The notes beneath the pieces are model-generated. The model had not been told where the DNA came from, did not search any database, and was given only the letters and a program-made list of their open reading frames with translations. From positions 227,871-291,870 of the forward strand of contig CALSSE010000007.1 of the NCBI GenBank assembly GCA_943788935.1: a DNA stretch of 64,000 nt. The letters are read 5' to 3'. Below are positions 24,438 to 61,919 of the stretch, piece after piece. Both the position numbers and the translations under genes were made by a program. This DNA comes from an uncultured bacterium. Lineage in GTDB: Bacteria > Myxococcota_A > Bradymonadia > UBA7976 > VGTA01. Position 1 is the first letter of the stretch, and each line of letters opens with the position of its first letter.

Positions 24438-27374
24438 TTAGTTAGGATGACGATCAAGCTCACGCTTAAGATATTGACCGGTGAAACTCTCCGGGGTATT
24501 GGCTACCTCCTCTACGGTTCCCTCTGCGACGATGAATCCACCAGCATCCCCCCCCTCAGGACCGAGATCAATCACCCAATCTGCGGTGCGAATAATATCG
24601 AGGTTATGCTCGATCATAATCACTGTATTACCAGCATCGGTGAGGCGTTGAATCACTTCTAATAATCGGCATATGTCTTCAGAGTGTAGTCCTGTGGAGG
24701 GTTCATCTAAGATGTAAAGAGTCTTTCCTGTTGGTCGCTTCGCCAATTCGCGAGAGAGCTTGATCCTTTGTGCTTCTCCCCCTGAGAGGGTGGTCGAAGG
24801 CTGACCGAGATGTACATACCCTAGCCCAACCGCCTGTAAAGTCTTGAGTATTTTGCTGACCTTAGGGTGTTTGGCGAAGATTTCGGCGGCCTCATCGATA
24901 GAGGTGTTCAACATCTCACTGATATGTTTCCCCTTAAACTGAACGCGGAGGGTCGCTTCGTTAAAGCGTTGCCCTTTGCAGACTTCGCACTCAACATAAA
25001 CATCAGCGAGGAAGTGCATCTCTACAGTGGTAACGCCCGCACCCTTACAAGACTCACAGCGCCCTCCTTTAATATTGAAGCTGAATCGACCCGCTTTAAA
25101 TCCATAAGTTTTAGACTCAGGGAGCATGGCATAGACGGCCCTAATCTCATCCCAAAGTTTGGTGTAAGTCGCAGGGTTGCTTCTAGGCGTTCTACCAATA
25201 GGGCTCTGGTCGATATGCACACACTTATCAAAATAATCAAAGCCGTCTATCCGTTCGCAAGGCACTCGGGTACCTTTTGCCTTATTGAGTCTCTGAGCGG
25301 CGGCAGGATGTAAGATCTGAGTGATCAGGGTGCTCTTTCCTGCTCCACTTACCCCAGTGACACAGGTGAATAGACCCACCGGGAATGAGACTGTGGTATT
25401 TTGGAGGTTGTTAGCGTTGGCCCGTACAACAGTCAAACGCCGCTCATCTCTGGTTCGTTTCTCGGGGATGGGGATTGACCTCCTCCCTGATAAATAAGCA
25501 CCGGTTAAACTCGTGGGATGCTCAGCGACCACTTGTGGTGGACCGCTGACGACGACTTCCCCGCCATGAATACCTGCTCTCGGTCCAAAGTCGACGATCC
25601 AATCACAGACTTGCATAAGCTCAGGGTCATGTTCCACGACGAGAACGCTGTTCCCTATATCTCTTAAATGGCATAAGGTCTCGATGAGTCGCGCGTTATC
25701 TCGAGCGTGGAGACCTATAGAGGGCTCATCTAAGATATACAGAACTCCGGTGAGCTCACTGCCGATTTGACTCGCTAAGCGAATACGCTGACTCTCTCCC
25801 CCGCTCAAGGTAGGACCGGGGCGATTTAAACTCAGGTAGGTTAAGCCAACGTTGATTAAGAATTTGAGGCGATGCTTTATCTCTTTCAAAAGTTCGGCAG
25901 CGATCGCTTCTTGACGAGGAGTGAGAGTGAGCTGGTTGAGGTGATCATAGGCTTCGTTAATGCTCCATGTATTAAGCTCAGGGATCGACACCCCACCCAC
26001 AAAAACAGATCGAGATTCCGCCCTCAGCCGCATCCCTCCACAAGAGCGACAGGGTCGATCGGAGAGATATTCACCATAGTTCTCTCGCGCTGACTCTGAC
26101 TCGGTGTCTCGCCATCGGCGGAGCATTAAGGGGAGCACCCCCTCCCAGACCGTCTTCATGGTGTGGCTTTTACCATGTCTAGACCTTAACTTAAGGATTA
26201 CCGTCTCTGGGTCTCCATTGAGGATGATCTCTCGATGTGGCTCGGAGAGCTCCTCGAAGGGGGCTTGACCAGAGATTTTATGACGCTTCATAATCTCTGC
26301 CATCACCTTCAAGGCCCACTTGATTGAGTGGTTTCCTCTCGGTTGGCGCCAGGGCTTTACCGCCCCGTTAGAGAGGCTGAGGCTCGGCTCGGGGATCAGT
26401 TTTTTAGCATCCATCTCAAAGGCGGTTCCAAGCCCGTTACAGTCTGGACACATACCTAGTGGACTGTTGAAGCTGAATGATTGCGGACTGAGCTCTGGGT
26501 AGCTGATACGACATGCTAAACAAGTATTGCTCTCGCTGAAGAGTTTATCGTCGGTGAGGAGGGAGTCTCCTTCTTTTTTGGTGATAACCGCTAAGGTGAG
26601 CTTCCCCTTACCCCACTTGAGCGCAGCCTCCACTGAATCGGCGACTCGCGCCTCCATATCGGGTTTAGCGACGAGCCTATCGATCACAACCTCTACTTGG
26701 TTACGCTTTTTCCCGTTGAGAGAGAGCTCTTCAGTCAATTCCACTACCTCATCATTGACTCTTAATCGCATGAAGCCTGCGACTCGCAGAGATTGAAGTA
26801 GCTCAGCGTTTGCCCCTTTTCGATTCTCTATCACCGGCGCAAGAATCATAAACTTGCTCTTTAGAGGGAGGTGGCAGATGGTGTTAACGATCTCTTGAGA
26901 AGACTGAGCTTCCACGACGTCACCACACTTATGGCAGCGTTGCTCCCCTGCCCTCGCGTACAAGACTCTTAAATAGTCATAGATTTCAGTGATAGTACCA
27001 ACAGTAGATCTTGGGTTCTTACTCGTTGTCTTTTGCTCGATGCTAATCGTTGGTGAAAGCCCCTTGATACTCTCATATTTGGGTTTGTCCATTTGACCCA
27101 AGAACTGACGCGCATAGGCGGAGAGACTCTCAACATAGCGTCTTTGACCTTCAGCGAAGAGCGTATCAAAGGCCATTGATGACTTTCCACTCCCTGAGAC
27201 CCCCGTAAATGTGACTAGGCTTCGTTTGGGGATCTCGAGGTCAACTGATTTAAGATTATGTTCTCCTGCTCCTCTCACCCTTATCCATGCGTCTTCCGCA
27301 AGAGTTGATCGCTCATTACGATGTTTTGGACTCGAAACCTGTTCATCCTTAAGCGCTCTTTTACTCATGTTCAC
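24438..27374 (-). CDS. uvrA: Excinuclease ABC subunit A
   Basis: The 978-aa protein has two ABC ATPase modules (GVSGSGKSS, GVSGAGKSTL, LSGGE..., LYILDEPS). Zn-finger Cys clusters are present (CHKCGD, CPDCNGLG, CESCKGAG...CEVCKG). Confidence 0.95.
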   Translation of the reverse strand: MNMSKRALKDEQVSSPKHRNERSTLAEDAWIRVRGAGEHNLKSVDLEIPKRSLVTFTGVSGSGKSSMAFDTLFAEGQRRYVESLSAYARQFLGQMDKPKYESIKGLSPTISIEQKTTSKNPRSTVGTITEIYDYLRVLYARAGEQRCHKCGDVVEAQSSQEIVNTICHLPLKSKFMILAPVIENRKGANAELLQSLRVAGFMRLRVNDEVVELTEELSLNGKKRNQVEVVIDRLVAKPDMEARVADSVEAALKWGKGKLTLAVITKKEGDSLLTDDKLFSESNTCLACRISYPELSPQSFSFNSPLGMCPDCNGLGTAFEMDAKKLIPEPSLSLSNGAVKPWRQPRGNHSIKWALKVMAEIMKRHKISGQAPFEELSEPHREIILNGDPETVILKLRSRHGKSHTMKTVWEGVLPLMLRRWRDTESESARENYGEYLSDRPCRSCGGMRLRAESRSVFVGGVSIPELNTWSINEAYDHLNQLTLTPRQEAIAAELLKEIKHRLKFLINVGLTYLSLNRPGPTLSGGESQRIRLASQIGSELTGVLYILDEPSIGLHARDNARLIETLCHLRDIGNSVLVVEHDPELMQVCDWIVDFGPRAGIHGGEVVVSGPPQVVAEHPTSLTGAYLSGRRSIPIPEKRTRDERRLTVVRANANNLQNTTVSFPVGLFTCVTGVSGAGKSTLITQILHPAAAQRLNKAKGTRVPCERIDGFDYFDKCVHIDQSPIGRTPRSNPATYTKLWDEIRAVYAMLPESKTYGFKAGRFSFNIKGGRCESCKGAGVTTVEMHFLADVYVECEVCKGQRFNEATLRVQFKGKHISEMLNTSIDEAAEIFAKHPKVSKILKTLQAVGLGYVHLGQPSTTLSGGEAQRIKLSRELAKRPTGKTLYILDEPSTGLHSEDICRLLEVIQRLTDAGNTVIMIEHNLDIIRTADWVIDLGPEGGDAGGFIVAEGTVEEVANTPESFTGQYLKRELDRHPN

Positions 27375-27546
27375 CTTTACCTCTATAATTTATCAACAGT
27401 GATATACAAATGAGCAGATGATGGAGGCAAGCGGTAAGCTTCCAGAAGTTGTCTCTACATCTAGAAAAGATTGTATTCAAAACAAAATGACTTTAGCTTT
27501 ATCTAGTATTGTTTTTTTCAACTCAACCTCTTTCAAGGAGTGAATC

Positions 27547-29055
27547 ATGGGGTTATATGTCAACACTAACGCGAGCGCTATTAACGCTCAACGTCAGTTA
27601 AATACAACGAGTAACGCTCTCGGTCGATCTTTCGAGCGGCTCTCAACAGGCTTAAGAATCAATGGCGCTAGGGACGACGCCGCTGGCCTAAGCATCGCGA
27701 CTCGACTTAGCGCTCAAGTGAACGGTCTCAATCAAGCGGTACGCAACAGCAATGATGGTATCTCATTGGCACAGACCGCCGAGGGAGCGCTCAATGAGAC
27801 TACAAATGTCCTACAGCGTATAAGAGAATTAGCTGTTCAATCAGCAAATGACACCAATAACGACAGTGACCGGGCTTCATTGCAAGCTGAGGTCGGTCAA
27901 TTGCTGAGTGAGATCGATCGTATCGCTGAGACCACCACCTTTAATAATATTAAGGTCCTCGATGGGACTCTGTTATATCGAGATCTGCAGCTAGGTGCTA
28001 AAGTTGGCGAGACAATGAGCGTCAGCATTAGCGGAGCGGCGACGAGTGATCTCGCACGACAAGCAAGGTACGAAGGGGGCACTTTCGTGAGCGCTGCCTC
28101 TTTCACTGGAGCCAACTTTGAGTTGACAAGCGTCGACGGCTCTACGTTTCATGATGTGAGGGCGACGAATTCTGCCGACGATCAATTGTCTACCTTCGGC
28201 AATGACTACTCAGCGATCGCCAAAGCAGAGGCGATCAACGTTATTTCGGCGACCACTGGTGTTCGCGCCATTGTAGGCCCTACAGAAGTCGCTGCTACTG
28301 TAGCTGTTGCATTAGGCGGTGATATCACCTTCAACGCGTCGACATTTTTCGTGGTCAATGATGTCAAGTTCAGCGGTTTCACAGCCACTAGTAATGACGC
28401 TGATGGTACTCTGGTTGACGCGATCAATGCAGAGAGCTCATCGACAGGGGTAGTCGCTTCACTTACTGAGAGAGGCGCTCTCAAGTTAACCGCTGCTGAT
28501 GGTCGTAACATCCATATGGAATTCTCGAGCGATGCTCTCGCAGATCAAATGGGTAACATGGATGGGTTCACCACTGAGGCCGCTGCGACTGCAGCAGGTA
28601 CAGCAAATACTCTAGCGCACTTTGTCGCGACGGGCAAACTCACCCTACAAGCTGAACAATCCTTTGAGATCAGAGTTGCAGGAGCATCCACCTTGGTTGG
28701 TTTCCAAAGCACAGGGGTTGGAGTGTATGGTGTCAACAGCGCCTACAGTATGTCTTCAGTGGATATTAGTGATCGAGAGGGGGCGGTAGAAGGACTAGAT
28801 GTCATTGACCTCGCCCTCGAGCATGTCTCTTCGCAACGCGCCAAGCTCGGCGCTCTTCAGAATCGCTTGGAGAGCACGATTAATAATCTCAGCACTACCT
28901 CCGAGAATCTCGTCGCCTCGCGAGGTCGTATTCAAGACGCTGACTTCGCAGCAGAGACCGCGCAGCTGTCACGGAATCAAATCATCCAACAGGCAGGTGT
29001 CTCTATCCTCGCTCAGGCTAACCAGCAGCCACAAATCGCGCTTACGCTTCTCTGA
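27547..29055 (+). CDS. fliC: Flagellin (copy 1, intact, 502 aa)
   Basis: Conserved flagellin D0/D1 termini are present: MGLYVNTNASAINAQRQLN...GLRINGARDDAAG... and ...[29 protein letters not shown]. It has its own RBS and is followed by a strong terminator. Confidence 0.95.
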   Translation: MGLYVNTNASAINAQRQLNTTSNALGRSFERLSTGLRINGARDDAAGLSIATRLSAQVNGLNQAVRNSNDGISLAQTAEGALNETTNVLQRIRELAVQSANDTNNDSDRASLQAEVGQLLSEIDRIAETTTFNNIKVLDGTLLYRDLQLGAKVGETMSVSISGAATSDLARQARYEGGTFVSAASFTGANFELTSVDGSTFHDVRATNSADDQLSTFGNDYSAIAKAEAINVISATTGVRAIVGPTEVAATVAVALGGDITFNASTFFVVNDVKFSGFTATSNDADGTLVDAINAESSSTGVVASLTERGALKLTAADGRNIHMEFSSDALADQMGNMDGFTTEAAATAAGTANTLAHFVATGKLTLQAEQSFEIRVAGASTLVGFQSTGVGVYGVNSAYSMSSVDISDREGAVEGLDVIDLALEHVSSQRAKLGALQNRLESTINNLSTTSENLVASRGRIQDADFAAETAQLSRNQIIQQAGVSILAQANQQPQIALTLL

Positions 29056-29125
29056 TCATTGTTGGATCAGCTCAGTCAGTAACAATATTTGACTGAACTG
29101 CTTGAGATAATGAGGGTAATGAAAA

Positions 29126-29158
29126 GCCCACTTGACATCGTCAAGTGGGCTTTTTTTT
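29126..29158 (+). terminator. Rho-independent terminator after flagellin copy 1
   Basis: The hairpin GCCCACTTGAC-atcg-GTCAAGTGGGC is followed by T8. Confidence 0.8.
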
Positions 29159-29204
29159 GAGAACTACCCTGGCTGTTTCAATGAGTTAATATTGGTAATA
29201 ATAA

Positions 29205-29240
29205 TAAAAAAATTGAAATCTCAGTCAATGTGTCCGATTA
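29205..29240 (+). promoter_or_regulatory. Sigma-28 (FliA)-like class III promoter of flagellin copy 2
   Basis: The pattern AAATTGAA-N15-TCCGATTA matches TAAA-N15-GCCGATAA. Equivalent elements sit at 30885-30920, 32568-32604 and 34388-34425, upstream of copies 3-5. Confidence 0.5.
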
Positions 29241-29247
29241 TGGTCGG

Positions 29248-29259
29248 GCCATCGATGGC
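29248..29259. promoter_or_regulatory. Perfect 12-bp palindrome GCCATCGATGGC between the promoter and RBS of flagellin copy 2
   Basis: It is conserved exactly at 30925-30936, 32609-32620 and 34429-34440, upstream of copies 3-5. It is absent upstream of copy 1. Confidence 0.6.
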
Positions 29260-29296
29260 ATTGTTTTAAGTCCCATACATATTCAAGGAGTGAATC

Positions 29297-30737
29297 ATGG
29301 GTTTATTTGTAAATACTAACGCTTCGGCGTTGAACGCTCAGCGCCAGCTGAACTCTACCTCTAACTCTCTCGGCCGCTCATTCGAGCGTCTCTCTTCAGG
29401 TCTCCGTATCAACGGCGCCAAGGATGACGCTGCTGGCCTCAGCATTACCACTCGCTTCAGCGCTCAGATCCGTGGTCTGAACCAAGCTGTACGTAACAGT
29501 AATGACGGGATCTCTTTGGCGCAGACCGCTGAGGGTGCCCTCAACGAGACCACCAACATCCTTCAGCGTATCCGTGAGCTTGCTGTCCAGTCATCAAATG
29601 ACACCAACAACGACAGCGACCGCGCTTCACTCCAAGCTGAGGTCTCTCAGCTGCAGAGTGAGCTTGACCGCATCGCTGAGACCACAAACTTCAACGGCAA
29701 CAAGGTCCTCGACGGGACCTTCCTCGCCAAGAATATTCAGGTCGGCGCTAACGTCGGTGAGACTCTCAGCGTAAGCATTGACGCTGCGGCGACTAAAGAC
29801 TTGGCTCGCCAAGCACGATATGATGGCACAGAGGTTACAAATGCTGCAATCGCTGGTGGTGGTGACGTCACCATCACTTATAAGGATGCAGCATCTGCTA
29901 CAGGTGAGAGTTCTGCAAATGTGCGCGCAACTAATGACAATGATGATGCCCTCTCTACATCACAAAAGTCTTTCTCTGCGATTTCAAAAGCAGCAGCGAT
30001 TAACAGCTTAAGTGACACCACAGGTGTACGAGCGATCGTAAACGCTACAACTTTGGGTGGTGGAGCAATTGCTGCTGGTAACCTAAGCGCATCTTCATTC
30101 ATTGAGATCAACGGTGAGAAGATCTCAGGCTTTGCGGTTCAAGCAAATGATGCCGACGGAGCTTTGACCGATGCCATCAATGCAGTGTCAGATACTACAG
30201 GTGTTGTCGCTTCACTCGATAGTGACAGCCAACTTGTATTGACAGCGGCGGATGGTCGAAACATCGAAGTTGATATTACAAACGCTACTAATGCTGGTTT
30301 TGCCGCTGATGATGTTCAGCGTGGATCGATCACTCTTCAATCTGATAGCCAGTATGAGCTTGGTGGTGCTGCGATAGCCCGTCATCGGTCACGGACCAGG
30401 GATCTATGGCGTTAACTCGGACAACTCAGTCAAAGAGCTCGACATCAGCACTCGTGATGGCGCTGTTCAAGCTCTTGACACCATCGACCTCGCGCTTGAG
30501 AACGTCTCTTCTTCACGCGCTAAGCTCGGTGCGCTTCAGAATCGTCTCGAGAGCACCATCAACAACCTCAGCACCACCTCTGAGAACTTGAGCGCTTCAC
30601 GGAGCCGCATCCTCGACGCGGACTTCGCTTCTGAGACTGCACAGCTCTCTCGCAACCAGATCATTCAGCAGGCAGGTGTCTCTATCCTCGCTCAGGCTAA
30701 CCAGCAACCGCAGGTCGCGCTCGCGCTCCTCGGTTAA
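29297..30737 (+). CDS. fliC: Flagellin copy 2; the reading frame is broken once (~30376) in the central variable domain
   Basis: The N-terminal 165 aa and C-terminal ~100 aa are near-identical to copies 3-5. ORF 29297-30415 ends ...[18 protein letters not shown] +1 frame read from ~30377 gives [30 protein letters not shown]...LALLG*, ending at 30737. Confidence 0.8.
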
Positions 30738-30806
30738 TGATCGCTTGATTCACTCGGCGTATTCAGCTGCCGCTTAGGCGTGTTGAGCGCTGAGCAGGAT
30801 TATAGA

Positions 30807-30846
30807 AGCCCGTTTGGTATAGCCAAGCGGGCTTTTTGTGTTTTTG
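30807..30846 (+). terminator. Rho-independent terminator after flagellin copy 2
   Basis: The hairpin AGCCCGTTTGG-tatag-CCAAGCGGGCT is followed by TTTTTGTGTTTTT. Confidence 0.75.
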
Positions 30847-30973
30847 GGCCTGTTTCCGGAACACATTGAGGGTGTCTTTAAAATAAAAATTGAATTTTGA
30901 CTTAATGTATCCGATCATGTCGAAGCCATCGATGGCATTGTTCTAAGCCCCATACATATTCAAGGAGTGAATC

Positions 30974-32423
30974 ATGGGTTTATTTGTAAATACTAACGCT
31001 TCGGCGTTAAACGCTCAGCGCCAGCTGAACTCTACCTCTAACTCTCTCGGCCGCTCATTCGAGCGTCTCTCTTCAGGTCTCCGTATCAACGGCGCCAAGG
31101 ATGACGCTGCTGGCCTCAGCATTACCACTCGCTTCAGCGCTCAGATCCGTGGTCTGAACCAAGCGGTACGTAACAGTAATGACGGGATCTCTTTGGCTCA
31201 GACCGCTGAGGGTGCCCTCAACGAGACCACCAACATCCTTCAGCGTATCCGTGAGCTAGCTGTCCAGTCATCAAATGACACCAACAACGACAGCGACCGC
31301 GCTTCACTCCAAGCTGAGGTCTCTCAGCTGCAGAGTGAGCTTGACCGCATCGCTGAGACCACAAACTTCAACGGCAACAAGGTCCTCGACGGGAGCTTCC
31401 TCGCCAAGAACATTCAGGTCGGCGCTAACGTCGGTGAGACTCTCAGCGTAAGCATTGACGCTGCGGCTACCAAAGACTTGGCTCGCCAAGCACGATATGA
31501 TGGCACCGCAGTGTTGACGCGAATGGTATTCGCTGCTGGAGCTGATGTTCCATCACCTACAAAGATGCTTCATCTAGCCTACGGGTGAGAGTTCTGCGAA
31601 TGTCCGCGCAACGGTCTCAGCTGATGATGGCGTGTCTACCACAGGAACACTTTCTCTGCAATCGCCAAGGCTGCAGCCATCAATGATCTCACTGCAACGA
31701 CTGGAGTTCGAGCGATCGTTAACGCGACAACTGTTGACGGTGGTGACAATCGATGCGGGCTCTCTAAACGCATCTGATTACATTGAGATTAATGGCGAGA
31801 AGATCAGCGGCTTTGATGTTCAAGCAAATGACGCAGACGGCGCTCTCACTGATGCCATTAACGCTGTCTCAGACGAGACTGGAGTCGTTGCATCACTCGA
31901 CAGTGATAGTCAACTTGTACTTACCGCTGCTGATGGTCGCAACATTGAAGTGACAATCACCGGTGGTGCTGCTGACGAGACAGGTCTCGCAACAGGAACT
32001 TCTGCGGGTTCTTTGACCTTGCAGTCAAATAACCAGTACCAAATTGGAGGCGCGACCGCTGCTGCCCTAATCGGCCACGGATCAGGCATCTACGGCGTGA
32101 ACTCAGATAGCTCCGTAAAAGAGCTCGACATCAGCACTCGCGCTGGCGCTGTTCAAGCTCTTGACACCATCGATCTCGCGCTTGAGAACGTCTCTTCTTC
32201 ACGCGCTAAGCTCGGTGCGCTTCAGAATCGTCTTGAGAGCACCATCAACAACCTCAGCACCACCTCTGAGAACTTGAGCGCTTCACGGAGCCGCATCCTC
32301 GACGCGGACTTCGCTTCTGAGACTGCACAGCTCTCTCGCAACCAGATCATTCAGCAGGCAGGTGTCTCTATCCTCGCTCAGGCTAATCAGCAACCACAGG
32401 TCGCGCTCGCGCTCCTCGGTTAA
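30974..32423 (+). CDS. fliC: Flagellin copy 3; it has at least three frame disruptions in the variable domain and is a likely pseudogene unless these are assembly errors
   Basis: Segments lie in different frames: 30974-31588 (N-term), a third-frame segment [35 protein letters not shown] around 31640-31760, and 31632-32423 (C-terminus ...QVALALLG). Confidence 0.7.
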
Positions 32424-32489
32424 TGATCGCTTGATTCACTCGGCGTATTCAGCTGCCGCTTAGGCGTGTTGAGCGTTGAGTAGGATCAT

Positions 32490-32532
32490 AGAAGCCCGTT
32501 TGGTATAGCCAAGCGGGCTTTTTGTGTTTTTG
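32490..32532 (+). terminator. Rho-independent terminator after flagellin copy 3
   Basis: The hairpin and T-tract are identical to those at 30807-30846. Confidence 0.75.
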
Positions 32533-32657
32533 GGCCTGTATTAAAAAAATAAAAGACAGTCACTAAAAAAAAATTGATCTTTGTATCAATATGTCCGAAT
32601 ATTAGCATGCCATCGATGGCACTATTTTAAGCCCCATATAAATTCAAGGAGTGAATC

Positions 32658-34164
32658 ATGGGTTTATTCGTAAATACTAACGCTTCGGCGTTGAACGCTC
32701 AGCGCCAGCTGAACTCTACCTCTAACTCTCTCGGCCGCTCATTCGAGCGTCTCTCTTCAGGTCTCCGTATCAACGGCGCCAAAGACGACGCCGCTGGCCT
32801 CAGCATCACGACTCGCTTCAGCGCTCAGATCCGTGGTCTGAACCAAGCGGTACGTAACAGTAATGACGGGATCTCTTTGGCTCAGACCGCCGAGGGTGCG
32901 CTCAACGAGACCACCAACATCCTGCAGCGTATCCGTGAGCTAGCGGTTCAGGCGTCAAATGACACCAACAACGACAGCGACCGCGCTTCACTCCAAGCTG
33001 AGGTCTCTCAGCTTCAGAGTGAGCTTGATCGTATCGCTGACACCACCAATTTCAACGGTAACAAGGTCCTCGACGGTAGCTTCCTCGCCAAGAACATTCA
33101 AGTCGGCGCCAATGTCGGTGAGACACTCAGCGTAAGCATTGACGCAGCAGGCACTAAAGACCTCGCTCGTCAAGCTCGTTATGAGAGTGATACTTTCGTA
33201 AATGACGCAGCCTTCAGCACAGCAGCAAACACCTTCTCAATCTCATCGGCGGATCGAACCAACGGTGTTACTTTTGTAGATGTTCGTGGCACCGTTGACG
33301 CTGATGACGCTTTCTCTACAACGGGTAAAGACTTCTCAGCGATCGCCAAGGCTGCCGCGATCAATGATCTCTCCAACACCACAGGTGTACGAGCGATCGT
33401 TGGTGAAACAGAAGTAGAAGCAGCGGGTGCAGTGGGAGCGGTTACTCTAAACGCTTCTAACTTCGTAACCATCAATGGCGAAAAAATCGCCGGCTTCGCA
33501 TGTCGCGTCGAATGATGCAGATGGGAATCTCTGTCGACGCGATCAACGCTGTCTCTGATGACACAGGTGTCGTGGCTGGGCTCAGCTCAACAGGAGCCTT
33601 AACGCTTACCGCTGCTGATGGTCGTAATATCGCTGTCGAGTTCAGCGGGGCTGCCGTTGCTGATGCTGTAGGATTTGATGGCTTTACTGCAGCAGCCACC
33701 ATCGTTGCGAGTACGGTGCTACAGTGACTGAGTTTGTGGCCACCGCTAAGATCACCCTCCAATCTGATAGTGACTTTGAGATCGAAGTTGGCTCTGCGAG
33801 CACCTTCGCAGGCTTCACTGATGATGGTGTCTACGGAGTGAACTCAGATAATTCTGTGAACACACTCGACATCAGCACTCGCGGTGGCGCTGTGCAAGCT
33901 CTTGACACCATCGACCTCGCGCTTGAGAATGTCTCTTCTTCACGCGCTAAGCTCGGTGCGCTTCAGAACCGCCTCGAGAGCACCATCAACAACCTCAGCA
34001 CCACCTCTGAGAACTTGAGCGCCTCACGGAGCCGTATCCTCGACGCGGACTTCGCCTCTGAGACTGCACAGCTCTCTCGCAACCAGATCATTCAGCAAGC
34101 GGGTGTATCTATCCTCGCTCAGGCTAATCAGCAGCCACAGATCGCGCTCGCGCTCCTCGGTTAA
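32658..34164 (+). CDS. fliC: Flagellin copy 4; it has about three frameshifts in the variable domain
   Basis: The pieces are 32658-33515, 33500-33727 and 33724-34164. Two shifts fall within ~40 bp at ~33490-33530 ([21 protein letters not shown]) and one at ~33710. Confidence 0.7.
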
Positions 34165-34227
34165 TGATCGCTTGATCAACTCAATACACCTAACGGCTGC
34201 TTAGACAGCTGTCGGCGCTGAGTTTGA

Positions 34228-34268
34228 TAACAGGGAAGCTCGCTTGGCTAGGTCAAGCGGGCTTTTTT
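34228..34268 (+). terminator. Rho-independent terminator after flagellin copy 4
   Basis: The hairpin CTCGCTTGG-cta-GGTCAAGCGGGC is followed by TTTTTTTGTTTTT. Confidence 0.65.
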
Positions 34269-34274
34269 TGTTTT

Positions 34275-34355
34275 TGGCCTTTGGCTCTGACTTTGGCTCT
34301 GACTTTGGCTCTGGACTTTGGCTACTGACTTTGACTTTGACTTTGACTTATGACC
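34275..34355. repeat. Tandem repeat CTTTGGCTCTGA / CTTTGA, ~8 units
   Basis: It lies immediately after the terminator of flagellin copy 4. Confidence 0.8.
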
Positions 34356-34478
34356 AGGGCTGATTGGTGAAGGTATCTTGGAGACAAAAATAAATTGAAA
34401 TCTGACGCAAAGTAACCGACACTAGTCAGGCCATCGATGGCATTATTTTAAGCCCCATACAAATTCAAGGAGTGAATC

Positions 34479-35976
34479 ATGGGTTTATTCGTAAATACTA
34501 ACGCTTCCGCGTTAAACGCTCAGCGCCAGCTGAACTCTACCTCTAACTCTCTCGGCCGTTCATTTGAGCGTCTCTCTTCAGGTCTCCGTATCAACGGCGC
34601 CAAGGACGACGCGGCTGGCCTCAGCATCACTACTCGCTTCAGCGCTCAGATCCGTGGTCTGAACCAAGCTGTACGTAACAGTAATGACGGGATCTCTTTG
34701 GCGCAGACCGCCGAGGGTGCGCTCAACGAGACCACCAATATCCTCCAGCGTATCCGTGAGCTAGCGGTTCAGTCGTCAAATGACACCAACAACGACAGCG
34801 ACCGCGCTTCACTCCAAGCTGAGGTCTCTCAGCTCAAGAGTGAGCTTGATCGCATCGCTGAGACCACTAACTTTAACGGTAACAAGGTCCTCGACGGCAC
34901 CTTCCTCGCCAAGGACATCCAAGTGGGCGCCAACGTTGGTGAGACTCTGAGCGTCAGCATCGATGCAGCGGCTACCAAAGATCTCGCGCGCCAAGCTCGC
35001 TACGAAGGCGATTCATTTGTCAGCGCAGCCTCTTTCACAGCAGCAGGCAACTTTGCGCTCTCTCAAGCAGGTACAAACGGCGGTACTTTCGTTGACGTTC
35101 GCGCAACGGTAGCTGCAGATGATGCACTATCTACTACGGGTAAAGATTATTCTGCGATCTCTAAAGCGGCTGCGATCAATGATCTCACAGAGACTACAGG
35201 CGTCCGAGCGATCGTTGGGCCAACAACCGTCGCCGGTACTGCAAATGCAGTAGATGGTATCGCCCTGAACGCGAGTAACTTCTTCGAGATCAATGGTGAG
35301 AAAATCGCCGGCTTCACTGTCGCTGACAATGATGCTGATGGTAACCTCGTTGATGCCATTAACGCTGTGTCTGATGAGACCGGTGTCGTGGCGAGTCTAA
35401 GCGCTAACAGTGAGCTCACCCTCACCGCGGCCGACGGTCGTAACATTGAGCTTACATTTACAGGTGCAAACACTGCAGGAAGCCTCGGTTTTGGTGCAGG
35501 CACTAATGCTGCGCACTGCCGCTGCAGCAACGGTTGTTGCAACTGGTCAGATCACCCTTCAATCAAATGAAGCGTTTGAGATTGATACAGGAAATGCAGG
35601 CTCTTCTACTCTGATTGGCTTTAACACTCAAACAGAAGGAGTCTACGGCGTTAACTCTGAGGAGAGCGTCTATCAGCTCGACATCAGCACTCGCGATGGC
35701 GCTGTTCAAGCTCTTGACACCATCGACCTCGCGCTTGAGAACGTCTCTTCTTCACGCGCTAAGCTCGGTGCGCTTCAGAATCGTCTTGAGAGCACTATCA
35801 ACAATCTCAGCACTACCTCTGAGAACTTGAGCGCTTCACGGAGCCGCATCCTCGACGCGGACTTCGCTTCTGAGACTGCACAGCTCTCTCGCAACCAGAT
35901 CATCCAGCAGGCTGGCGTGTCTATCCTCGCCCAGGCTAATCAGCAACCACAGGTCGCGCTCGCGCTCCTCGGTTAA
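34479..35976 (+). CDS. fliC: Flagellin copy 5; it has one frameshift (~35505) in the variable domain
   Basis: The pieces are 34479-35570 and 35410-35976. Across the junction ...GTNAA|[21 protein letters not shown] is restored by a 1-nt shift. Confidence 0.8.
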
Positions 35977-36037
35977 TGATCGCTTGATGAGCTCGATTCA
36001 CTCAGCAGTGGCTTGACCTCTGAGAGTGACGAGTAGA

Positions 36038-36073
36038 GTCATAGAAGAGCCCTCTTGATCTGATCAAGGGGGC
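36038..36073 (+). terminator. Rho-independent terminator after flagellin copy 5
   Basis: The hairpin AGCCCTCTTGATC-tgatc-AAGGGGGCT is followed by T9. Confidence 0.75.
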
Positions 36074-36153
36074 TTTTTTTTTGGGTATACCCTTCCCTTG
36101 TCTCCTGACTTAATAGTCTGAGCGCTGTTCATGCGTATTGAAGGATTATTGAT

Positions 36154-37059
36154 ATGAACATTCCCTACTTTCACGTTGACGCCTTTACCCAAAATAGGTT
36201 TAGCGGTAACGCGGCAGGTGTATGCTTGCTCTCTAGCCCCTTGAGTGATCAAGTTCTCCGGCAGATGGCTCAAGAGCATCATCTCGCTGAGACCGCCTTT
36301 GTTACCGTCGATGAGAGCCAACTTCAGCTGCGTTGGTTCACTCCTGAGCTAGAGATGGATCTCTGTGGTCATGCGACTTTAGCAGCGGCTCATGTGCTCT
36401 TCTCAGAGGGACGAGCGCAGCGATGGCTCAAGGAGCAAGGGGTACAGCTAGGAGATCAAATCTGCTTTAGCACTGTGAGTGGTGTCATCTCTGTTTACAC
36501 TCACCCCTCAATGGGGATGAGCTCATCGTACACATTAGATCTGCCAGAGCGAGCTCCTACTCAGCTCTCTGAGTGGGGAGATGATCCACAGGTCACGCAG
36601 ATCATCAAGGCTCTCGGTCAGAACCCCATTGAGGTGTGGCGCTCTCGTGATGTCCTCTGCCTCTTTGAAGATGCGGAGAGGGTTCGATCTTTAAACCCCG
36701 ATCCTCTCTTGATGGGAGCCGTTGAGCTTGGGACTGGTGGAGTGATCGTGACCGCGAGCGGTCTTCATGAGCAGAGACGTCACTCTTCGGGGAGGAGAGC
36801 TGACTTTATCTCACGCTTCTTCACCCCCCAGGCAGAGCTGTTTGAAGATGACGTCACAGGCTCAGCACATTGCACTCTGGGGCCCTTCTGGTCTCAGAGA
36901 CTCAACGTTGATGATTTAGTGGCTTACCAAGCCTCAGAGAGAGGAGGATGGCTGACGGTGAGAGTCTTTAACGCCGCTCATAATGACGGGCCGATACGCG
37001 GTAGAGTCTGGGTTAGCGGAGAGGCGGTCACTTATATGGAGGGGACGCTCAGAGTATAG
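36154..37059 (+). CDS. PhzF-family phenazine-biosynthesis-like isomerase
   Basis: The N-terminus MNIPYFHVDAFTQNRFSGNAAGVCLL and the 301-aa length are typical of the PhzF/YddE fold. Confidence 0.75.
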   Translation: MNIPYFHVDAFTQNRFSGNAAGVCLLSSPLSDQVLRQMAQEHHLAETAFVTVDESQLQLRWFTPELEMDLCGHATLAAAHVLFSEGRAQRWLKEQGVQLGDQICFSTVSGVISVYTHPSMGMSSSYTLDLPERAPTQLSEWGDDPQVTQIIKALGQNPIEVWRSRDVLCLFEDAERVRSLNPDPLLMGAVELGTGGVIVTASGLHEQRRHSSGRRADFISRFFTPQAELFEDDVTGSAHCTLGPFWSQRLNVDDLVAYQASERGGWLTVRVFNAAHNDGPIRGRVWVSGEAVTYMEGTLRV

Positions 37060-37092
37060 CCTACTCAGCCTCCAACTCAAGCGAGCTGAGGG

Positions 37093-37428
37093 TTATGTGA
37101 TCTCTTCACCACACTCCTCAACGACCCACTGCAGATAAGGCTGATAGGAGTGATCTTCATCGATCTTTAGCGCTAATATCTCGGGTAACTCATAGGGATG
37201 TAGACGCTTGATCTCTTGGACACAACGCTCAAGGACCTCATCACTGACCTTAGCGGTTAAGGTGATCTCTTGATCAATACAAATCTCGCCCTCCCAACGA
37301 TAGACGCTCTTGACAGGGCTTAAAGTGACGCAGGCGGCGAGCCTGCTCTCTATCAGTTGGCGAGCGATCGACTCAGCGTCCTCTTTAGGGAGATTACTGA
37401 TCACCAGGGCGGTAGGGCTTGAGTTCAT
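37093..37428 (-). CDS. cutA: Divalent-cation tolerance protein CutA
   Basis: The CutA1 fold sequence is present: ...LVISNLPKEDAESIARQLIESRLAACVTLSPVKSVYRWEGEI...YELPEILALKID. The track ORF (to 37506) overlaps the pepP end, so the internal Met (MNSSPTALV) is taken as the start. Confidence 0.7.
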   Translation of the reverse strand: MNSSPTALVISNLPKEDAESIARQLIESRLAACVTLSPVKSVYRWEGEICIDQEITLTAKVSDEVLERCVQEIKRLHPYELPEILALKIDEDHSYQPYLQWVVEECGEEIT

Positions 37429-37435
37429 ATTGAGT

Positions 37436-38725
37436 TTAGCCTCGAGCGGCCATGATCGACTCAATCTCATGAATCTCGCGGGGGCAATCAGCGGAGAGCA
37501 CCTCACAGCCGCCTTCGGTCACTAAGATGTCATCCTCGATACGAATTCCGATCTCCTCTTTAGCGATGTAAATCCCCGGCTCGATGGTGATCACCATCCC
37601 GGCGCGGAGGGGTTCACGCTGAAGACCAGAGTCGTGGACATAGAGACCGACAAAGTGGCCTAGGCTGTGAAAGTAATCGTCGGCGTATCCCGCCTCGTCG
37701 ATCACTTGACGAGCGATCTCGTTGAGCTGCGCCCAGGTGACGCCTGGGCGAACCGCCGCTACTGATGCTTTCCACGCGTTAAGGACCACTTGATAGACCT
37801 CGGCTTGTCGAGGAGTAAAGGTGCCGTTGACAGGGAAGGTGCGGGTGATATCAGAGGCATACATCTCGTATTCACAGCCCACATCACAGAGCACTAACTC
37901 ACCGTCTTTCATCACCTTTCGATTTTGACCATAGTGTAAGACACAGCTGTTGAGTCCAGACCCAATGATCGGCGCATAGGCGTTACTGTGACTCCCTTCA
38001 CGTCTAAAGTGACTCTCGAAGACATATTGTAGCTCGGACTCATTCATCTCAGGCTTTACGCTCTGCATGGCTTTCTTAAAGCCCTCTACCGTGATCCCCA
38101 CCGCTCGTCGCATGATATTGATTTCGTCCTCATCATGAACAGAGCGCATACGAGGTAAGAGCTCATGACCATCGCGGATCTTACTGTTTAAAATACGAGC
38201 GCTAGCGTCTCGGAGCACTTGTAGCTGCTTGGGAATGGGAGAGGTGTATCCAACCATCGATCCCAAGTAAACAAGGTCACGTTCTCTTGTATTAAGAATA
38301 GCATCGGTGAGCATTCTTGGTAATAGAGTAGTACGCATAACCTTAGCGATCCCCGTGCCGAGCTCGATAGCGCGACTTAAGATCGGTCGGTTACCGTGCC
38401 AGCGATTATCTTCTACATCGAGAGGGCGTAGGAAGAGGATCTCTTTATATTGTGGATGCTCTGGAGCGAGCAGTAGAGCCGCTCCCCCCTCAAACTCTAG
38501 ACCGGTGAGGTAGAAGAAATCGAGGTCTTGTCGCTGACCATCACCCACATGATCTGCGGCAAAGATCAAGGCGACCCCACTCTCCATCCCCTCCATTAGT
38601 CGTTGACGTCGTAGGCGATAAGTCTCTGCAGGGATAGGACCCGTCGGCGTAGGGATGCCCTCTACGTTGTGAGGGAGAGGTCGCTTAATATTAGGGGTCT
38701 CTAGAGGTCTCTTCGCGTGTTCCAT
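37436..38725 (-). CDS. pepP: Xaa-Pro aminopeptidase (M24B family)
   Basis: M24 metal-ligand motifs are present: VLCDVGCEYEMYASDITRTFPV, HSLGHFVGLYVHD, VITIEPGIY and IRIEDDILVT. Confidence 0.8.
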   Translation of the reverse strand: MEHAKRPLETPNIKRPLPHNVEGIPTPTGPIPAETYRLRRQRLMEGMESGVALIFAADHVGDGQRQDLDFFYLTGLEFEGGAALLLAPEHPQYKEILFLRPLDVEDNRWHGNRPILSRAIELGTGIAKVMRTTLLPRMLTDAILNTRERDLVYLGSMVGYTSPIPKQLQVLRDASARILNSKIRDGHELLPRMRSVHDEDEINIMRRAVGITVEGFKKAMQSVKPEMNESELQYVFESHFRREGSHSNAYAPIIGSGLNSCVLHYGQNRKVMKDGELVLCDVGCEYEMYASDITRTFPVNGTFTPRQAEVYQVVLNAWKASVAAVRPGVTWAQLNEIARQVIDEAGYADDYFHSLGHFVGLYVHDSGLQREPLRAGMVITIEPGIYIAKEEIGIRIEDDILVTEGGCEVLSADCPREIHEIESIMAARG

Positions 38726-38846
38726 GCTGGCTCCTTATCTGATCTCTTTGATCTTAGCGGAGCACAGCTTACCCTCTCTATAAGCCCTCGTCAAACCCCC
38801 ATATATTCATGTTTACACAGTGTGGCGATCTACAGAGTAAACATGA

Positions 38847-60117: not shown

Positions 60118-60918
60118 TTAGCTTGCTGGTTTAAGGTGGCCTGAGCGCTTCATCTTCCTCCAAAATCGCTTCATGATCTTATATTCATCGTCCACAAAGC
60201 CTCGATCCTTCATCGGAGGTGATCGCCTCGGCTTCTTATTCATTATACTGCGAAGATACTTACTGTGGGGGAGCCCAAAGTAATGACCGAGTTCATGGGC
60301 GAGGACCTTAGCTCTAGCGATCCGTGAAAGGATGACCCACCGACGACCTTTACGGTCTCTCGGATCTCTCCAATGGACACCTCTGATTTCAGTATCTTCG
60401 ACATCTACGTCTTCTAAACGATTGACAATAAAGAGCTCGATTTGACCCCGATGTAACCTCCTTTTGCCTCTCCCTAGAGCGGTACGCTGCGCGCGAGTCG
60501 CCATCACTGACTCGCTGATCGGTAAAGGCAGGTCATCTTGAATATAAAAGCAAACACCGATCTCCCTAAAGAGAGCGTTGGCCTCTGTGAGCTGCGCGGT
60601 GAGCCACAGGTCGTCAGTGCTTAAACCAGAGGGAGATGAGACAGAGGAGAGACGAGGTGTTCGGTGGATAAATAGACCTATCCTCTCTGTTTTTGGAGAG
60701 CATTTAGGGGTCCGTGTTGAGTGCCTAAGGGCCTCTGTCTTGCTCCACGCTTCTGTCTTGCCCCGCGCCTCTGTCTTGCCCCACGCTTCTGTCTTACCCC
60801 ATGTAGAGAGTATGACACAGAGAGCGATCGCGCTCAGTGTAAGATGAATATCGCTCGGATGACGGACTCTATTTTGGCTCGAAGCGCCTCGATGTCTAGT
60901 GATACATTTAGTGGGCAT
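60118..60918 (-). CDS. Metzincin-type zinc metalloprotease with an N-terminal (KTEAWG) repeat
   Basis: The motif is HELGHYFGLPHS (HExxHxxGxxH). A signal peptide is present. A 21-bp DNA repeat encodes GKTEAWGKTEARGKTEAWSKTEA. Confidence 0.65.
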   Translation of the reverse strand: MPTKCITRHRGASSQNRVRHPSDIHLTLSAIALCVILSTWGKTEAWGKTEARGKTEAWSKTEALRHSTRTPKCSPKTERIGLFIHRTPRLSSVSSPSGLSTDDLWLTAQLTEANALFREIGVCFYIQDDLPLPISESVMATRAQRTALGRGKRRLHRGQIELFIVNRLEDVDVEDTEIRGVHWRDPRDRKGRRWVILSRIARAKVLAHELGHYFGLPHSKYLRSIMNKKPRRSPPMKDRGFVDDEYKIMKRFWRKMKRSGHLKPAS

Positions 60919-61919
60919 CTGAGCGTCTTCTCTCTTTGACCTCTGCTAAGGTTGGGGGCTTACAACCGCTTCGCTCACAGTTGATCGAAGCAGCGATTGA
61001 GGCCATAAGACAAGCCTCCTCAATGTCATCTACAGTCAGTCTAGACTTAGCTTGGTGATGTTCTCTATTCGCTTGTAAAAATTGATATTGTTGGAGAAAA
61101 CACCCCATGAAAGTATCTCCTGCCCCCACGGTATCTTCAAGTGTAAAGAGAGGGTGAGCCCTCAGCGCTCTTCGAATATATGCCGGATCATCATTAGTGT
61201 GATCCGCTGACTTGACCCACATTATAACGCCCTCTGCCCCACGAGTGAGTAATAAGATGTCTGGCTGATAAGCGCTCAACAACGCTTCGCAAGACACGAT
61301 CTGTTCGGTGATACTTGTGACTTGATGATGATGACTCCACCATGAGAGATCTTCATCACTTAGCTTGATAAGATTAGAGGTGCTCATTATGCTCATGAGT
61401 CTCTCTCGATAGTTCGCTAGATCTTCGATGAGTAATGGCCTAATGTTTAAGTCGACGGAAGTAAATAACCCTTGTTCAGAGGCGAGCGCATAGAGCTCTC
61501 TCCAACATTCTCCATCGACTTCACCGGTGAGGGCTAATGAGCCTATATGAATCATGGAGGCGATCGTTCAAGTGAGTTCTCAAGCTCTCTCGAGTGACTA
61601 ACCGTTCTGCAGTCCCTTGTCGATAAAAGTGATAGCTCGCTGACCCTTCAGTTAAGGTGACCATCGCCAATGAGGTTGGAGCCTCTACTCGCCTCCCCAT
61701 CTGCTTTACACCGGCATCCTGGAGTGATCGTGATAGCTCTTCACCAAAGTGGTCCATTGACAGAGGCGTGAGATATCCGACCTCCGCTCCCATCAGACCA
61801 GCAGCGAGCGCTGTATTGTATGGAGAGCCGCCAAGGTGTGGTCTATAGATTATTGAGGCGTCTCGAGACTCCTCTGAGATCAGATCGATGAGGTTCTCAC
61901 CACCTACGACGAGCATCAA
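60908..61919 (-). CDS. PfkB-family carbohydrate kinase (fructokinase/ribokinase-like); the frame is broken near 61530
   Basis: The N-terminal piece is 61521-61919 (MMLVVGGENLIDLI...GGSPYNTALAAGLMGAEV). The C-terminal piece is 60908-61555 with the DTVGAGDTFMGCFL signature. The two pieces are in different frames. Confidence 0.7.

What the first reader, a model, noticed from the sequence alone, without database searches (positions are those of the whole stretch)
27547..35976. Array of five monocistronic flagellin genes; four of them have frame disruptions confined to the variable central domain
Copies 2-5 share an essentially identical ~165-aa N-terminus and ~100-aa C-terminus, and differ in the middle. 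Copy 1 is more divergent and intact. Copy 2 has 1 frameshift, copy 5 has 1, copy 4 has ~3 and copy 3 has at least 3. All lie in the variable region and none in the conserved D0/D1-encoding ends. Random read errors or collapsed-repeat artefacts would be expected to hit the conserved parts as well. The pattern could instead reflect decaying antigenic cassettes, a reservoir for gene conversion into an expressed copy via the conserved flanks, or systematic consensus errors in a low-accuracy assembly.
Basis: seen in the sequence. Interest (0 to 1): 0.6.

Follow-up and report, generated by a model that had tools for sequence, protein, structure and literature searches.

The report
Flagellin gene frameshifts are assembly artefacts
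The five tandem flagellin genes are real, but the frameshifts that break four of them are most likely consensus errors made where co-assembled strains differ at silent codon positions, so the finding is ordinary.

Summary
Five tandem flagellin genes lie at 27547-35976. Copy 1 is intact. Copies 2-5 carry 1, at least 5, 3 and 1 single-base frame errors, all in the central region.

The biological readings (decaying or silent cassettes) are not supported:
- A second assembly of a ~99% identical population (L075) has copies 4 and 5 intact. It lacks the indel at every frameshift site of copies 2, 4 and 5.
- Removing one base makes copy 5 100% identical to the L075 protein.
- Two short-read metagenomes carry intact 479-aa copy-2 homologues.
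- Window-versus-L075 codon differences in copies 4 and 5 are 17 synonymous to 2 non-synonymous, so these genes are under selection.
- There are no nonsense codons and no repeat tracts at the sites.

The indels sit at wobble positions. Inserted bases give two alternative synonymous codons (GC[A|T], CT[C|T], GC[G|C]). Deleted bases are four-fold wobble bases.

The only other broken gene in the window, a PfkB kinase, shows the mechanism directly. Two Illumina contigs read GATGCC and GTCGCC, and the window reads GATCGCC, the merge of both.

The frameshifts are therefore haplotype-merge consensus errors in a long-read metagenome contig. The array itself is an ordinary multi-flagellin locus in a marine relative of Myxococcales/Bradymonadia MAGs.

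The parts
27547..29055 (+). Flagellin copy 1, intact, 502 aa, the divergent copy
   Evidence: ORF. Pfam Flagellin_N, Flagellin_IN and Flagellin_C all above cut-off. L075 has the same 502-aa gene with 7 synonymous and 1 non-synonymous codon differences.
29297..30737 (+). Flagellin copy 2, with one +1 frame error at ~30373-30376 (GCGATAGCC[C]GTC). It is 479 aa when repaired.
   Evidence: Frame change 2 to 0. L075 and two JGI short-read contigs (L084, L085, each encoding 479 aa) are in frame across the site.
30974..32423 (+). Flagellin copy 3. Frame errors at 31549 (-1), 31574-31578 (+1, +1), 31643 (-1) and 31744 (+1), plus a probable compensating pair at ~31510 (-1) and ~31531 (+1). About 482 aa when repaired.
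   Evidence: Frame path. The in-frame JGI homologue L086/P0001 (83% aa identity) and c2 show GG[-]AAC, GG[T|G]ACA and TC[T|A]GC[C|T]ACG at the sites. There is no same-locus intact reference, because L075's c3 is a c2/c3 chimera.
32658..34164 (+). Flagellin copy 4. Frame errors at 33500 (+1, GC[A]TGTC), 33531 (+1, CT[C]TGTC) and 33714 (-1, AC[-]GGT). 501 aa when repaired.
   Evidence: L075 has an intact 501-aa gene that is identical around each site apart from the indel. The repaired protein is 99.6% identical to L075's. Codon differences are 11 synonymous and 2 non-synonymous.
34479..35976 (+). Flagellin copy 5. One +1 frame error at 35513 (GC[G]CACT). 498 aa when repaired.
   Evidence: The repaired protein is 100% identical to L075's intact 498-aa gene. 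Codon differences are 6 synonymous and 0 non-synonymous.
29214..29259 (+). Sigma-28-like motif TGAAATCT-N11-TCCGATTA (29214-29240) plus the palindrome GCCATCGATGGC (29248-29259) upstream of c2. Equivalent pairs lie at 30891-30936, 32575-32620 and 34396-34441 upstream of c3, c4 and c5. There is none upstream of c1.
   Evidence: Intergenic alignment. Regex coordinates, with only 4 matches in the whole window. The palindrome occurs exactly 4 times against 0.01 expected. Function is inferred from resemblance to the FliA consensus TAAAGTTT-N11-GCCGATAA (my knowledge).
29123..29157 (+). Intrinsic terminator after c1. Equivalent terminators lie at 30804-30836 (c2), 32490-32522 (c3), 34232-34268 (c4) and 36046-36081 (c5).
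   Evidence: Terminator scan: 22 found against 7.7 expected, with the three strongest lying after c2, c3 and c4. Alignment and coordinates.
60908..61919 (-). PfkB-family kinase split into 132-aa and 215-aa ORFs by a +1 error at ~61562. This is the control case that shows the error mechanism.
   Evidence: Pfam PfkB profile positions 6-117 and 133-298 fall on the two ORFs. Illumina-type Logan contigs L081 (..AACGATGCCTCC..) and L082 (..AACGTCGCCTCC..) are in frame. The window reads ..AACGATCGCCTCC...

Best explanation
The window comes from a long-read-based metagenome contig (486 kb) whose consensus was built from reads of at least two closely related strains. Where the strains differ, mostly at synonymous third-codon positions, the consensus or polishing step sometimes kept both alleles (a +1 insertion) or neither (a -1 deletion). 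The flagellin central domains are among the most polymorphic stretches of the part of the window covered by a second assembly, so they collected nearly all of these errors. The near-identical D0/D1-encoding ends offered few such sites. In the real genomes all five flagellins are most probably intact. Each is expressed from its own promoter (sigma-28-like for c2-c5) and ends at its own terminator, as in other multi-flagellin bacteria. Shown: the indels are absent from other assemblies, and the merge mechanism is seen directly at PfkB. Inferred: the same mechanism produced the flagellin indels, and the contig is long-read based.
For: 1. Independent assembly L075 (ENA ERZ10646634 contig_17747) is colinear with window 26160-47062 at 98.9% identity. 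It has c4 (501 aa) and c5 (498 aa) intact and differs from the window by an indel at each frameshift site of c2, c4 and c5.
2. L075 is itself error-prone. It has 7 indels at 41.9-44.0 kb, several of them in GGG or CCC runs, and its gene calls there are shorter than the window's ORFs. The two of these sites that Illumina-type contig L076 covers (41937, 42035) agree with the window. Its intact c4 and c5 therefore cannot be accidental.
3. Repaired c5 is 100% identical to the L075 protein and repaired c4 is 99.6% identical.
4. Two JGI short-read contigs encode intact 479-aa c2 homologues (~95% DNA identity) that are in frame at the c2 site.
5. Window-versus-L075 codon differences are c4 11 synonymous/2 non-synonymous, c5 6/0 and c1 7/1. 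Purifying selection is therefore the same as for the intact copy.
6. All disruptions are 1-nt indels, and the repaired ORFs have no stop codons.
7. Signature: in c4 and c5 all three insertions give two different adjacent bases that are alternative synonymous wobble bases (GCA/GCT, CTC/CTT, GCG/GCC). The one deletion removes a four-fold wobble base (ACN). The joint chance under random indels is ~0.017. The c3 sites fit the same pattern.
8. Direct demonstration at single-copy PfkB: two Illumina contigs carry GATGCC and GTCGCC, and the window carries their merge GATCGCC (+1).
9. L075's c3 is visibly a merge of c2-like and c3-like sequence.
10. Short-read assemblies (L076-L079, L080, the related MAG CAKZRU01) all break at the array. 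A contig that spans it must therefore rest on long reads.
Against: No reads were available, so the second allele at each flagellin site is inferred and not seen. c3 has no same-locus intact reference. The c2 site lies in a CCC run within a multi-SNP patch and does not show a clean wobble doubling. c5's variable region shows only 1 substitution against L075, so local polymorphism there is not demonstrated. I do not know which assembler or polisher was used, or whether it produces this error type. Wobble placement at some c3 sites was chosen after the fact among equivalent placements.
Confidence: 0.87

Rival explanations
1. Real pseudogenes. In this strain c2-c5 have been inactivated and are decaying, leaving c1 as the working flagellin. 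Gene conversion keeps the ends clean.
For: The disruptions cluster non-randomly in the central region and spare the ends. The ends of c2-c5 are 90-100% identical, which is compatible with concerted evolution. Another assembly (L080) has its own 1-nt deletion in c1's central region.
Against: The indels are absent from L075 and from JGI short-read homologues. There are no nonsense codons. The 17 synonymous to 2 non-synonymous differences in c4+c5 show continuing selection. Three to seven independent frameshifts per gene with almost no amino-acid change is not how decay looks. The wobble-position signature has no mutational rationale. The same kind of error in PfkB is contradicted by Illumina contigs.
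Confidence: 0.05
2. A silent-cassette reservoir for antigenic variation. The frameshifted copies are non-expressed donors that recombine into an expressed copy through the conserved flanks, as in pilE/pilS or vlsE systems.
For: The copies have conserved flanks and variable middles. In L075 the first half of c3's variable region is c2-like, which could be read as a conversion event.
Against: Every copy has its own start codon, RBS, promoter-like motif and terminator, so none is built as a silent cassette. The copies are intact in other assemblies. L075's c3 carries merged insertions from both c2-like and c3-like sequence, which indicates an assembly chimera and not a clean conversion tract. Related MAGs carry 2-5 tandem flagellins, each matched in full length as a single tblastn segment.
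Confidence: 0.03
3. An artefact of another kind: ordinary random long-read indels (homopolymer errors), or cross-mapping of reads between paralogous copies during polishing, and not strain merging.
For: The c2 site is in a CCC run. 31643 could be an AAA-to-AA or GG-N error. L075's c3 shows paralogue merging. At 33531 the extra C matches c5's CTC codon.
Against: None of the c4 or c5 sites lies in a run longer than 2. The rest of the window is essentially free of homopolymer errors, whereas L075 has them. At 33500 and 35513 no paralogue carries the extra base at the homologous position. PfkB is single-copy, and there the merged sequences are two strain haplotypes.
Confidence: 0.08
4. Programmed frameshifting or slipped-strand phase variation that switches individual flagellins on and off.
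For: Flagellar and surface genes are phase-variable through repeat tracts in some bacteria (my knowledge).
Against: No homopolymer longer than 3 nt and no short-repeat tract is visible in the 13-nt context of any site. Up to seven shifts in both directions occur in one gene. The sites differ between copies.
Confidence: 0.01

Closest known systems
Indel and frameshift consensus errors in long-read metagenome assemblies with microdiversity (protein truncation measured by IDEEL; microdiversity affecting MAG quality, PMC9262707; collapsed-strain consensus, PMC8302730)
   Same: Single-base indels truncate ORFs. They are absent from short-read contigs and from a second assembly. They are concentrated where co-occurring strains differ.
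   Different: The errors here are not the classic homopolymer type. They are mostly doubled or dropped wobble bases at SNP positions. The PfkB case shows a literal merge of two haplotypes. I did not find this specific signature described in the papers I opened.
Multi-flagellin loci (for example Vibrio flaA-E, Caulobacter fljJ-O, Bdellovibrio fliC1-6, Sinorhizobium flaA-D; from my knowledge)
   Same: There are several tandem, individually transcribed flagellin paralogues with near-identical D0/D1 ends and divergent central domains. One copy (c1) is divergent and has a different upstream region.
   Different: The host is an uncultured marine relative of Myxococcales/Bradymonadia MAGs. Which copies are used in the filament is unknown.
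Silent-cassette antigenic variation (Neisseria pilE/pilS; Borrelia vlsE, PMC11499132)
   Same: The copies have conserved flanks and variable middles and are arranged in tandem.
   Different: The cassettes here are complete genes with their own promoter-like motif, RBS, start codon and terminator. Their frame defects are not reproducible between assemblies.

Membership tests
Bacterial flagellin (FliC/Fla) | Complete Flagellin_N (PF00669) and Flagellin_C (PF00700) helical regions | tested here: met
   c1 and repaired c2-c5 match profile positions 1-137 of 139 (N) and 1-86 of 86 (C), with E-values of 1e-26 to 1e-48. All also match Flagellin_IN above cut-off.
Multi-flagellin tandem locus | Several complete flagellin genes side by side, each with its own transcription signals | tested here: met
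   There are five copies with identical RBS/ATG. Sigma-28-like motifs lie before c2-c5 and terminators after each copy. The signals are consensus matches only.
Pseudogene / decaying copy | The disruption is reproducible in independent sequence data of the same lineage | tested here: not met
   L075 lacks the indels of c2, c4 and c5. JGI short-read contigs have intact c2 homologues. c3 could not be tested.
Pseudogene / decaying copy | Relaxed selection (non-synonymous changes and nonsense codons accumulate) | tested here: not met
   17 synonymous against 2 non-synonymous codon differences in c4+c5. No stop codons after indel repair.
Silent-cassette antigenic variation system | Donor cassettes lack a promoter, start codon or 5' end, and there is a single expression site | tested here: not met
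   All copies have a start codon, RBS, promoter-like motif and terminator.
Phase-variable contingency locus | A homopolymer or short tandem repeat at the frameshift site | tested here: not met
   The longest run at any site is 3 nt. Across the array region scanned (27300-36200) the only tandem repeat is intergenic, at 34279-34354.
Haplotype-merge consensus artefact | The indel is absent from accurate or independent assemblies of the same population | tested here: met
   PfkB against two Illumina-type contigs. c2, c4 and c5 against L075 and JGI contigs.
Haplotype-merge consensus artefact | The indel sits at a position where two haplotypes differ, and its sequence is the union (or the omission) of the two alleles | tested here: inconclusive
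   Shown directly for PfkB. For the flagellins only one allele is seen (L075). The second is inferred from the wobble signature, p~0.017 for c4+c5.
Haplotype-merge consensus artefact | Read pile-ups show two substitution alleles and no indel | not testable with these tools
   No access to raw reads.

The most novel reading that the evidence does not exclude
At least c3's disruptions are real. Under this reading c3 is a decaying or donor copy that exchanges central-domain segments with c2. L075's c3 carries a c2-like first half, and the window's c3 is a c2-like/P0001-like mosaic. This flagellated Myxococcales/Bradymonadia-related lineage would then diversify its filament surface by gene conversion among tandem copies.
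Probability: 0.07. Interest if true: 0.45.

Novelty: not a real feature. Interest (0 to 1): 0.1.

Why it matters
As biology it matters little. The array is a normal multi-flagellin locus, and its genes should be annotated as intact, not as pseudogenes.

As a quality lesson it is useful. Frameshifts in long-read metagenome contigs can be strongly non-random. They can concentrate in the most polymorphic parts of surface-protein genes and so mimic 'decaying antigenic cassettes'. The doubled or dropped wobble-base signature, and the PfkB example in which two Illumina haplotypes are literally merged, give a simple sequence-only test for spotting such artefacts.

The real signals left over are modest:
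- Flagellin central domains are hot spots of strain-level diversity.
- The ends of c2-c5 evolve in concert.
- A marine relative of uncultured Myxococcales/Bradymonadia MAGs carries tandem flagellin genes.

Tried and rejected
- Exact-protein look-ups of c1, UvrA and the c5 N-terminal fragment (P0002) found nothing on record. The PhzF-like neighbour was what opened the way to L075 and the Logan contigs.
- A profile search with the four repaired variable domains found no near-identical short-read (Logan) fragments of the variable regions. Direct Illumina confirmation at the flagellin sites was therefore not possible.
- A degenerate DNA pattern spanning both c4 sites found nothing in JGI metagenome contigs. 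I did not use the second scan.
- A literature search for the run, sample and assembly accessions found nothing, so the sequencing platform and pipeline of the window remain inferred.
- Rfam found no RNA families in the window.
- Paralogue cross-mapping was tested as the source of the extra bases and rejected for 33500 and 35513, because no paralogue has that base.
- Homopolymer error was rejected for the c4 and c5 sites.
- Phase variation and programmed frameshifting were rejected because the sites have no repeat context and there are too many shifts per gene.
- L075 could not serve as a reference for c3. Its c3 is c2-like in the first half and a c2/c3 merge in the second.
Full report
**Observation**

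The region 27547-35976 holds five + strand flagellin genes.
- c1 (27547-29055) is an intact 502-aa ORF.
- c2 (29297-30737), c3 (30974-32423), c4 (32658-34164) and c5 (34479-35976) each have a length of 1 mod 3 and are split into two to four ORF pieces.
- At the DNA level c2-c5 are 90-100% identical over the first ~480 nt and the last ~300 nt, and 30-80% identical in between. c1 is more distant.

tblastn with intact relatives and three-frame reading give the frame paths:

| Copy | Frame errors |
|---|---|
| c2 | one shift near 30375 |
| c3 | 31549, 31574-78 (+2), 31643, 31744; probably a compensating pair near 31510 and 31531 |
| c4 | three shifts at 33500, 33531, 33714 |
| c5 | one shift at 35513 |

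All sites lie between the Flagellin_N and Flagellin_C regions. After single-base repairs every copy is a full-length flagellin (479, ~482, 501 and 498 aa) with no internal stop codon and with complete Pfam N, IN and C matches.

**Transcription signals**

- All five copies share the RBS/start AAGGAGTGAATCATG.
- c2-c5, but not c1, are preceded by TGAAATCT-N11-TCCGATTA-type motifs. These resemble the FliA (sigma-28) consensus (my knowledge).
- c2-c5 also carry a palindrome, GCCATCGATGGC. It occurs exactly four times in the window against 0.01 expected.
- Each copy is followed by a strong hairpin-plus-T-run terminator.

'Monocistronic' is thus supported at the level of consensus signals.

**Is the window generally error-prone?**

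No. The window's other ORFs of 120 aa or more look like complete genes, with one exception. A PfkB-family kinase is split into 132-aa and 215-aa ORFs that cover profile positions 6-117 and 133-298. So there is one frameshift in ~55 kb outside the array, against at least nine in ~2.6 kb of flagellin central domains.

**Independent sequence of the same population**

The exact protein of the neighbouring PhzF-like gene is found on an ENA contig (L075, ERZ10646634 contig_17747, 46 kb) and on several short Logan contigs from runs ERR97692xx.
- L075 is colinear with window 26160-47062 at 98.9% identity.
- In L075, c4 (501 aa) and c5 (498 aa) are intact.
- The base-by-base comparison shows an indel difference at each window frameshift site of c2, c4 and c5, with identical flanks:
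  - GC[A]TGTC against GCTGTC
  - CT[C]TGTC against CTTGTC
  - AC[-]GGT against ACTGGT
  - GC[G]CACT against GCCACT
- Repaired c5 is 100% identical to the L075 protein, and repaired c4 is 99.6% identical.

L075 is itself a noisy assembly.
- It has its own extra T in the conserved C-terminal part of c2.
- It has a run of indels in c3.
- It has seven indels at 41.9-44.0 kb, several of them in GGG or CCC runs, where its called genes are shorter than the window's ORFs. The two of these sites that Illumina-type contig L076 covers (41937, 42035) agree with the window.

Errors do not create intact 500-aa ORFs, so the intact alleles of c4 and c5 exist.

For c2, cluster look-up found two intact 479-aa homologues on JGI short-read contigs (L084, L085; ~95% DNA identity). 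They are in frame across the c2 site.

Related Myxococcales/Bradymonadia MAGs carry 2-5 tandem flagellins, each matched in full length as a single tblastn segment. The closest MAG shares the flanking synteny, PBP1-x-UvrA-flagellins ... flagellin-CutA-peptidase M24, but its short-read assembly breaks inside the array.

**Are the broken copies decaying?**

No. Codon differences between the window and L075 are 11 synonymous to 2 non-synonymous in c4, 6 to 0 in c5, and 7 to 1 in the intact c1. A gene with three independent frameshifts should have accumulated mostly non-synonymous changes and some stop codons, and none is seen.

**What the errors look like**

In c4 and c5 all three insertions create two different adjacent bases. 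Each of these, taken alone, gives a synonymous codon (GCA/GCT Ala, CTC/CTT Leu, GCG/GCC Ala). The one deletion removes the wobble base of a four-fold codon (ACN Thr).
- In a simulation of random indels in these genes, an insertion shows this signature with probability 0.38 and a deletion with 0.30. The joint probability is ~0.017.
- With the in-frame JGI homologue L086 and c2 as guides, the c3 sites fit the same pattern:
  - GG[-]AAC
  - GG[T|G]ACA
  - TC[T|A]GC[C|T]ACG
  - GT[-]TCC
  - a likely pair, GT[-]GTT and AT[T|C]GCT
- The c3 placements were partly chosen after the fact.
- No site lies in a run longer than 3 nt.
- At 33500 and 35513 the extra base is not found in any paralogue at the homologous position. 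Cross-mapping between copies therefore does not explain those sites.

**The mechanism seen directly**

The PfkB site is covered by two Illumina-type Logan contigs from different runs, and both are in frame.

| Source | Sequence |
|---|---|
| L081 | ..AAC GAT GCC TCC.. |
| L082 | ..AAC GTC GCC TCC.. |
| window | ..AACGATCGCCTCC.. |

The window sequence is the shortest sequence that contains both haplotypes, one base too long. This is a consensus built from two co-occurring strains.

L075 shows the same behaviour on a larger scale. Its c3 contains insertions taken from both c2-like and c3-like sequence.

Differences between the two assemblies are concentrated in the array.

| Region | Substitutions per kb |
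|---|---|
| flanks | 0 (left, 1.4 kb) and 1.5 (right, 11 kb) |
| c1 variable domain | 7 |
| c4 variable domain | 15 |
| c2 variable domain | 46 |
| c3 variable domain | ~200 (L075's c3 is a chimera) |

c5 is an exception, with only 1.5 per kb.

**Conclusion**

The frame disruptions are best explained as haplotype-merge consensus errors in a long-read-based metagenome contig. They are concentrated in the flagellin central domains because that is where the co-assembled strains differ.

Long-read origin is inferred from two facts. The contig is 486 kb, and every short-read assembly breaks at the array. That indel-derived protein truncation and microdiversity affect long-read MAGs is established (PMC9262707; strain collapse, PMC8302730). 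The specific wobble-doubling signature is my own description.

**What remains uncertain**
- No reads could be examined.
- c3 has no same-locus intact reference.
- The c2 site is not a clean wobble case, because it lies in a CCC run within a multi-SNP patch.

I put 0.87 on the artefact explanation, about 0.05 on real pseudogenes and about 0.03 on a silent-cassette system. The silent-cassette reading also fails its defining feature, since every copy has its own start codon, RBS, promoter-like motif and terminator.

**Comparison with known systems**

The array is an ordinary member of the multi-flagellin loci known from Vibrio, Caulobacter, Bdellovibrio and others (my knowledge). Here it sits in an uncultured marine relative of Myxococcales/Bradymonadia MAGs. 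It resembles silent-cassette antigenic variation only in having conserved flanks and variable middles.

Noticed in passing
window 60908-61919 (-), site ~61562: A PfkB-family kinase is split by a +1 base. Two Illumina-type contigs carry two different in-frame haplotypes (GATGCC and GTCGCC), and the window carries their merge, GATCGCC.
   Followed up: yes
window 29248-29259, 30925-30936, 32609-32620, 34430-34441: A perfect 12-nt palindrome, GCCATCGATGGC, lies in the 5' leader of c2-c5, about 40 nt before each ATG and just downstream of a sigma-28-like motif. It is absent upstream of c1 and occurs nowhere else in the window. It may be a regulator site or a leader hairpin.
   Followed up: partly
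window 34279-34354 (c4-c5 spacer): A tandem repeat of a 12-nt unit, CTTTGGCTCTGA (5.4 copies), degenerates into 6-nt CTTTGA units and makes this spacer ~80 nt longer than the others. The window and L075 differ here by three 1-nt indels.
   Followed up: partly
L075:4816-6275 (c3 of the second assembly): In L075 the first half of c3's variable region is nearly identical to c2. The second half mixes c2-specific and c3-specific insertions. It looks like an assembly chimera, but a real c2-to-c3 conversion in some strains is not excluded.
   Followed up: partly
L080:1501-3008 (= window 27547-29055): A third assembly (ENA ERZ23498428, SOLA22-1 METAG scaffold) has c1 split into 413-aa and 101-aa ORFs by a 1-nt deletion at window 28695 (the TTG|GTT boundary, a wobble-compatible position). 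It also has 11 single-base substitutions in c1 and the c1-c2 spacer.
   Followed up: partly
L076 and L078 against window 35941-42702: Almost all differences between the Logan short-read contigs and the window are G-to-A or C-to-T in the Logan contig (13 of 14 in L076). L078 also has a CGC-to-TTT triplet. This could be a strain difference or cytosine-deamination-type damage in those libraries.
   Followed up: no
window 24438-47000; L001, L012: The closest relatives of the locus are uncultured Myxococcales/Bradymonadia MAGs with conserved flanking synteny (UvrA 82% and peptidase M24 85% aa identity). Several of these MAGs carry 2-5 tandem flagellins. I did not search the window or these MAGs for other flagellar genes.
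   Followed up: partly
window 2444-3235 (-): A 263-aa protein has long (KP)n and (KKR)n low-complexity runs followed by a C-terminal domain. Judging by eye it looks like a TonB-type protein. The ORFs next to it were not examined.
   Followed up: no
window 15221-17725 (+): An 834-aa protein has five MopE-type putative metal-binding motifs and two PPC (pre-peptidase C-terminal) domains. It is preceded by a 120-aa ORF that overlaps it by 17 nt and has a weak DUF5885 hit. I did not check whether these are one gene.
   Followed up: no
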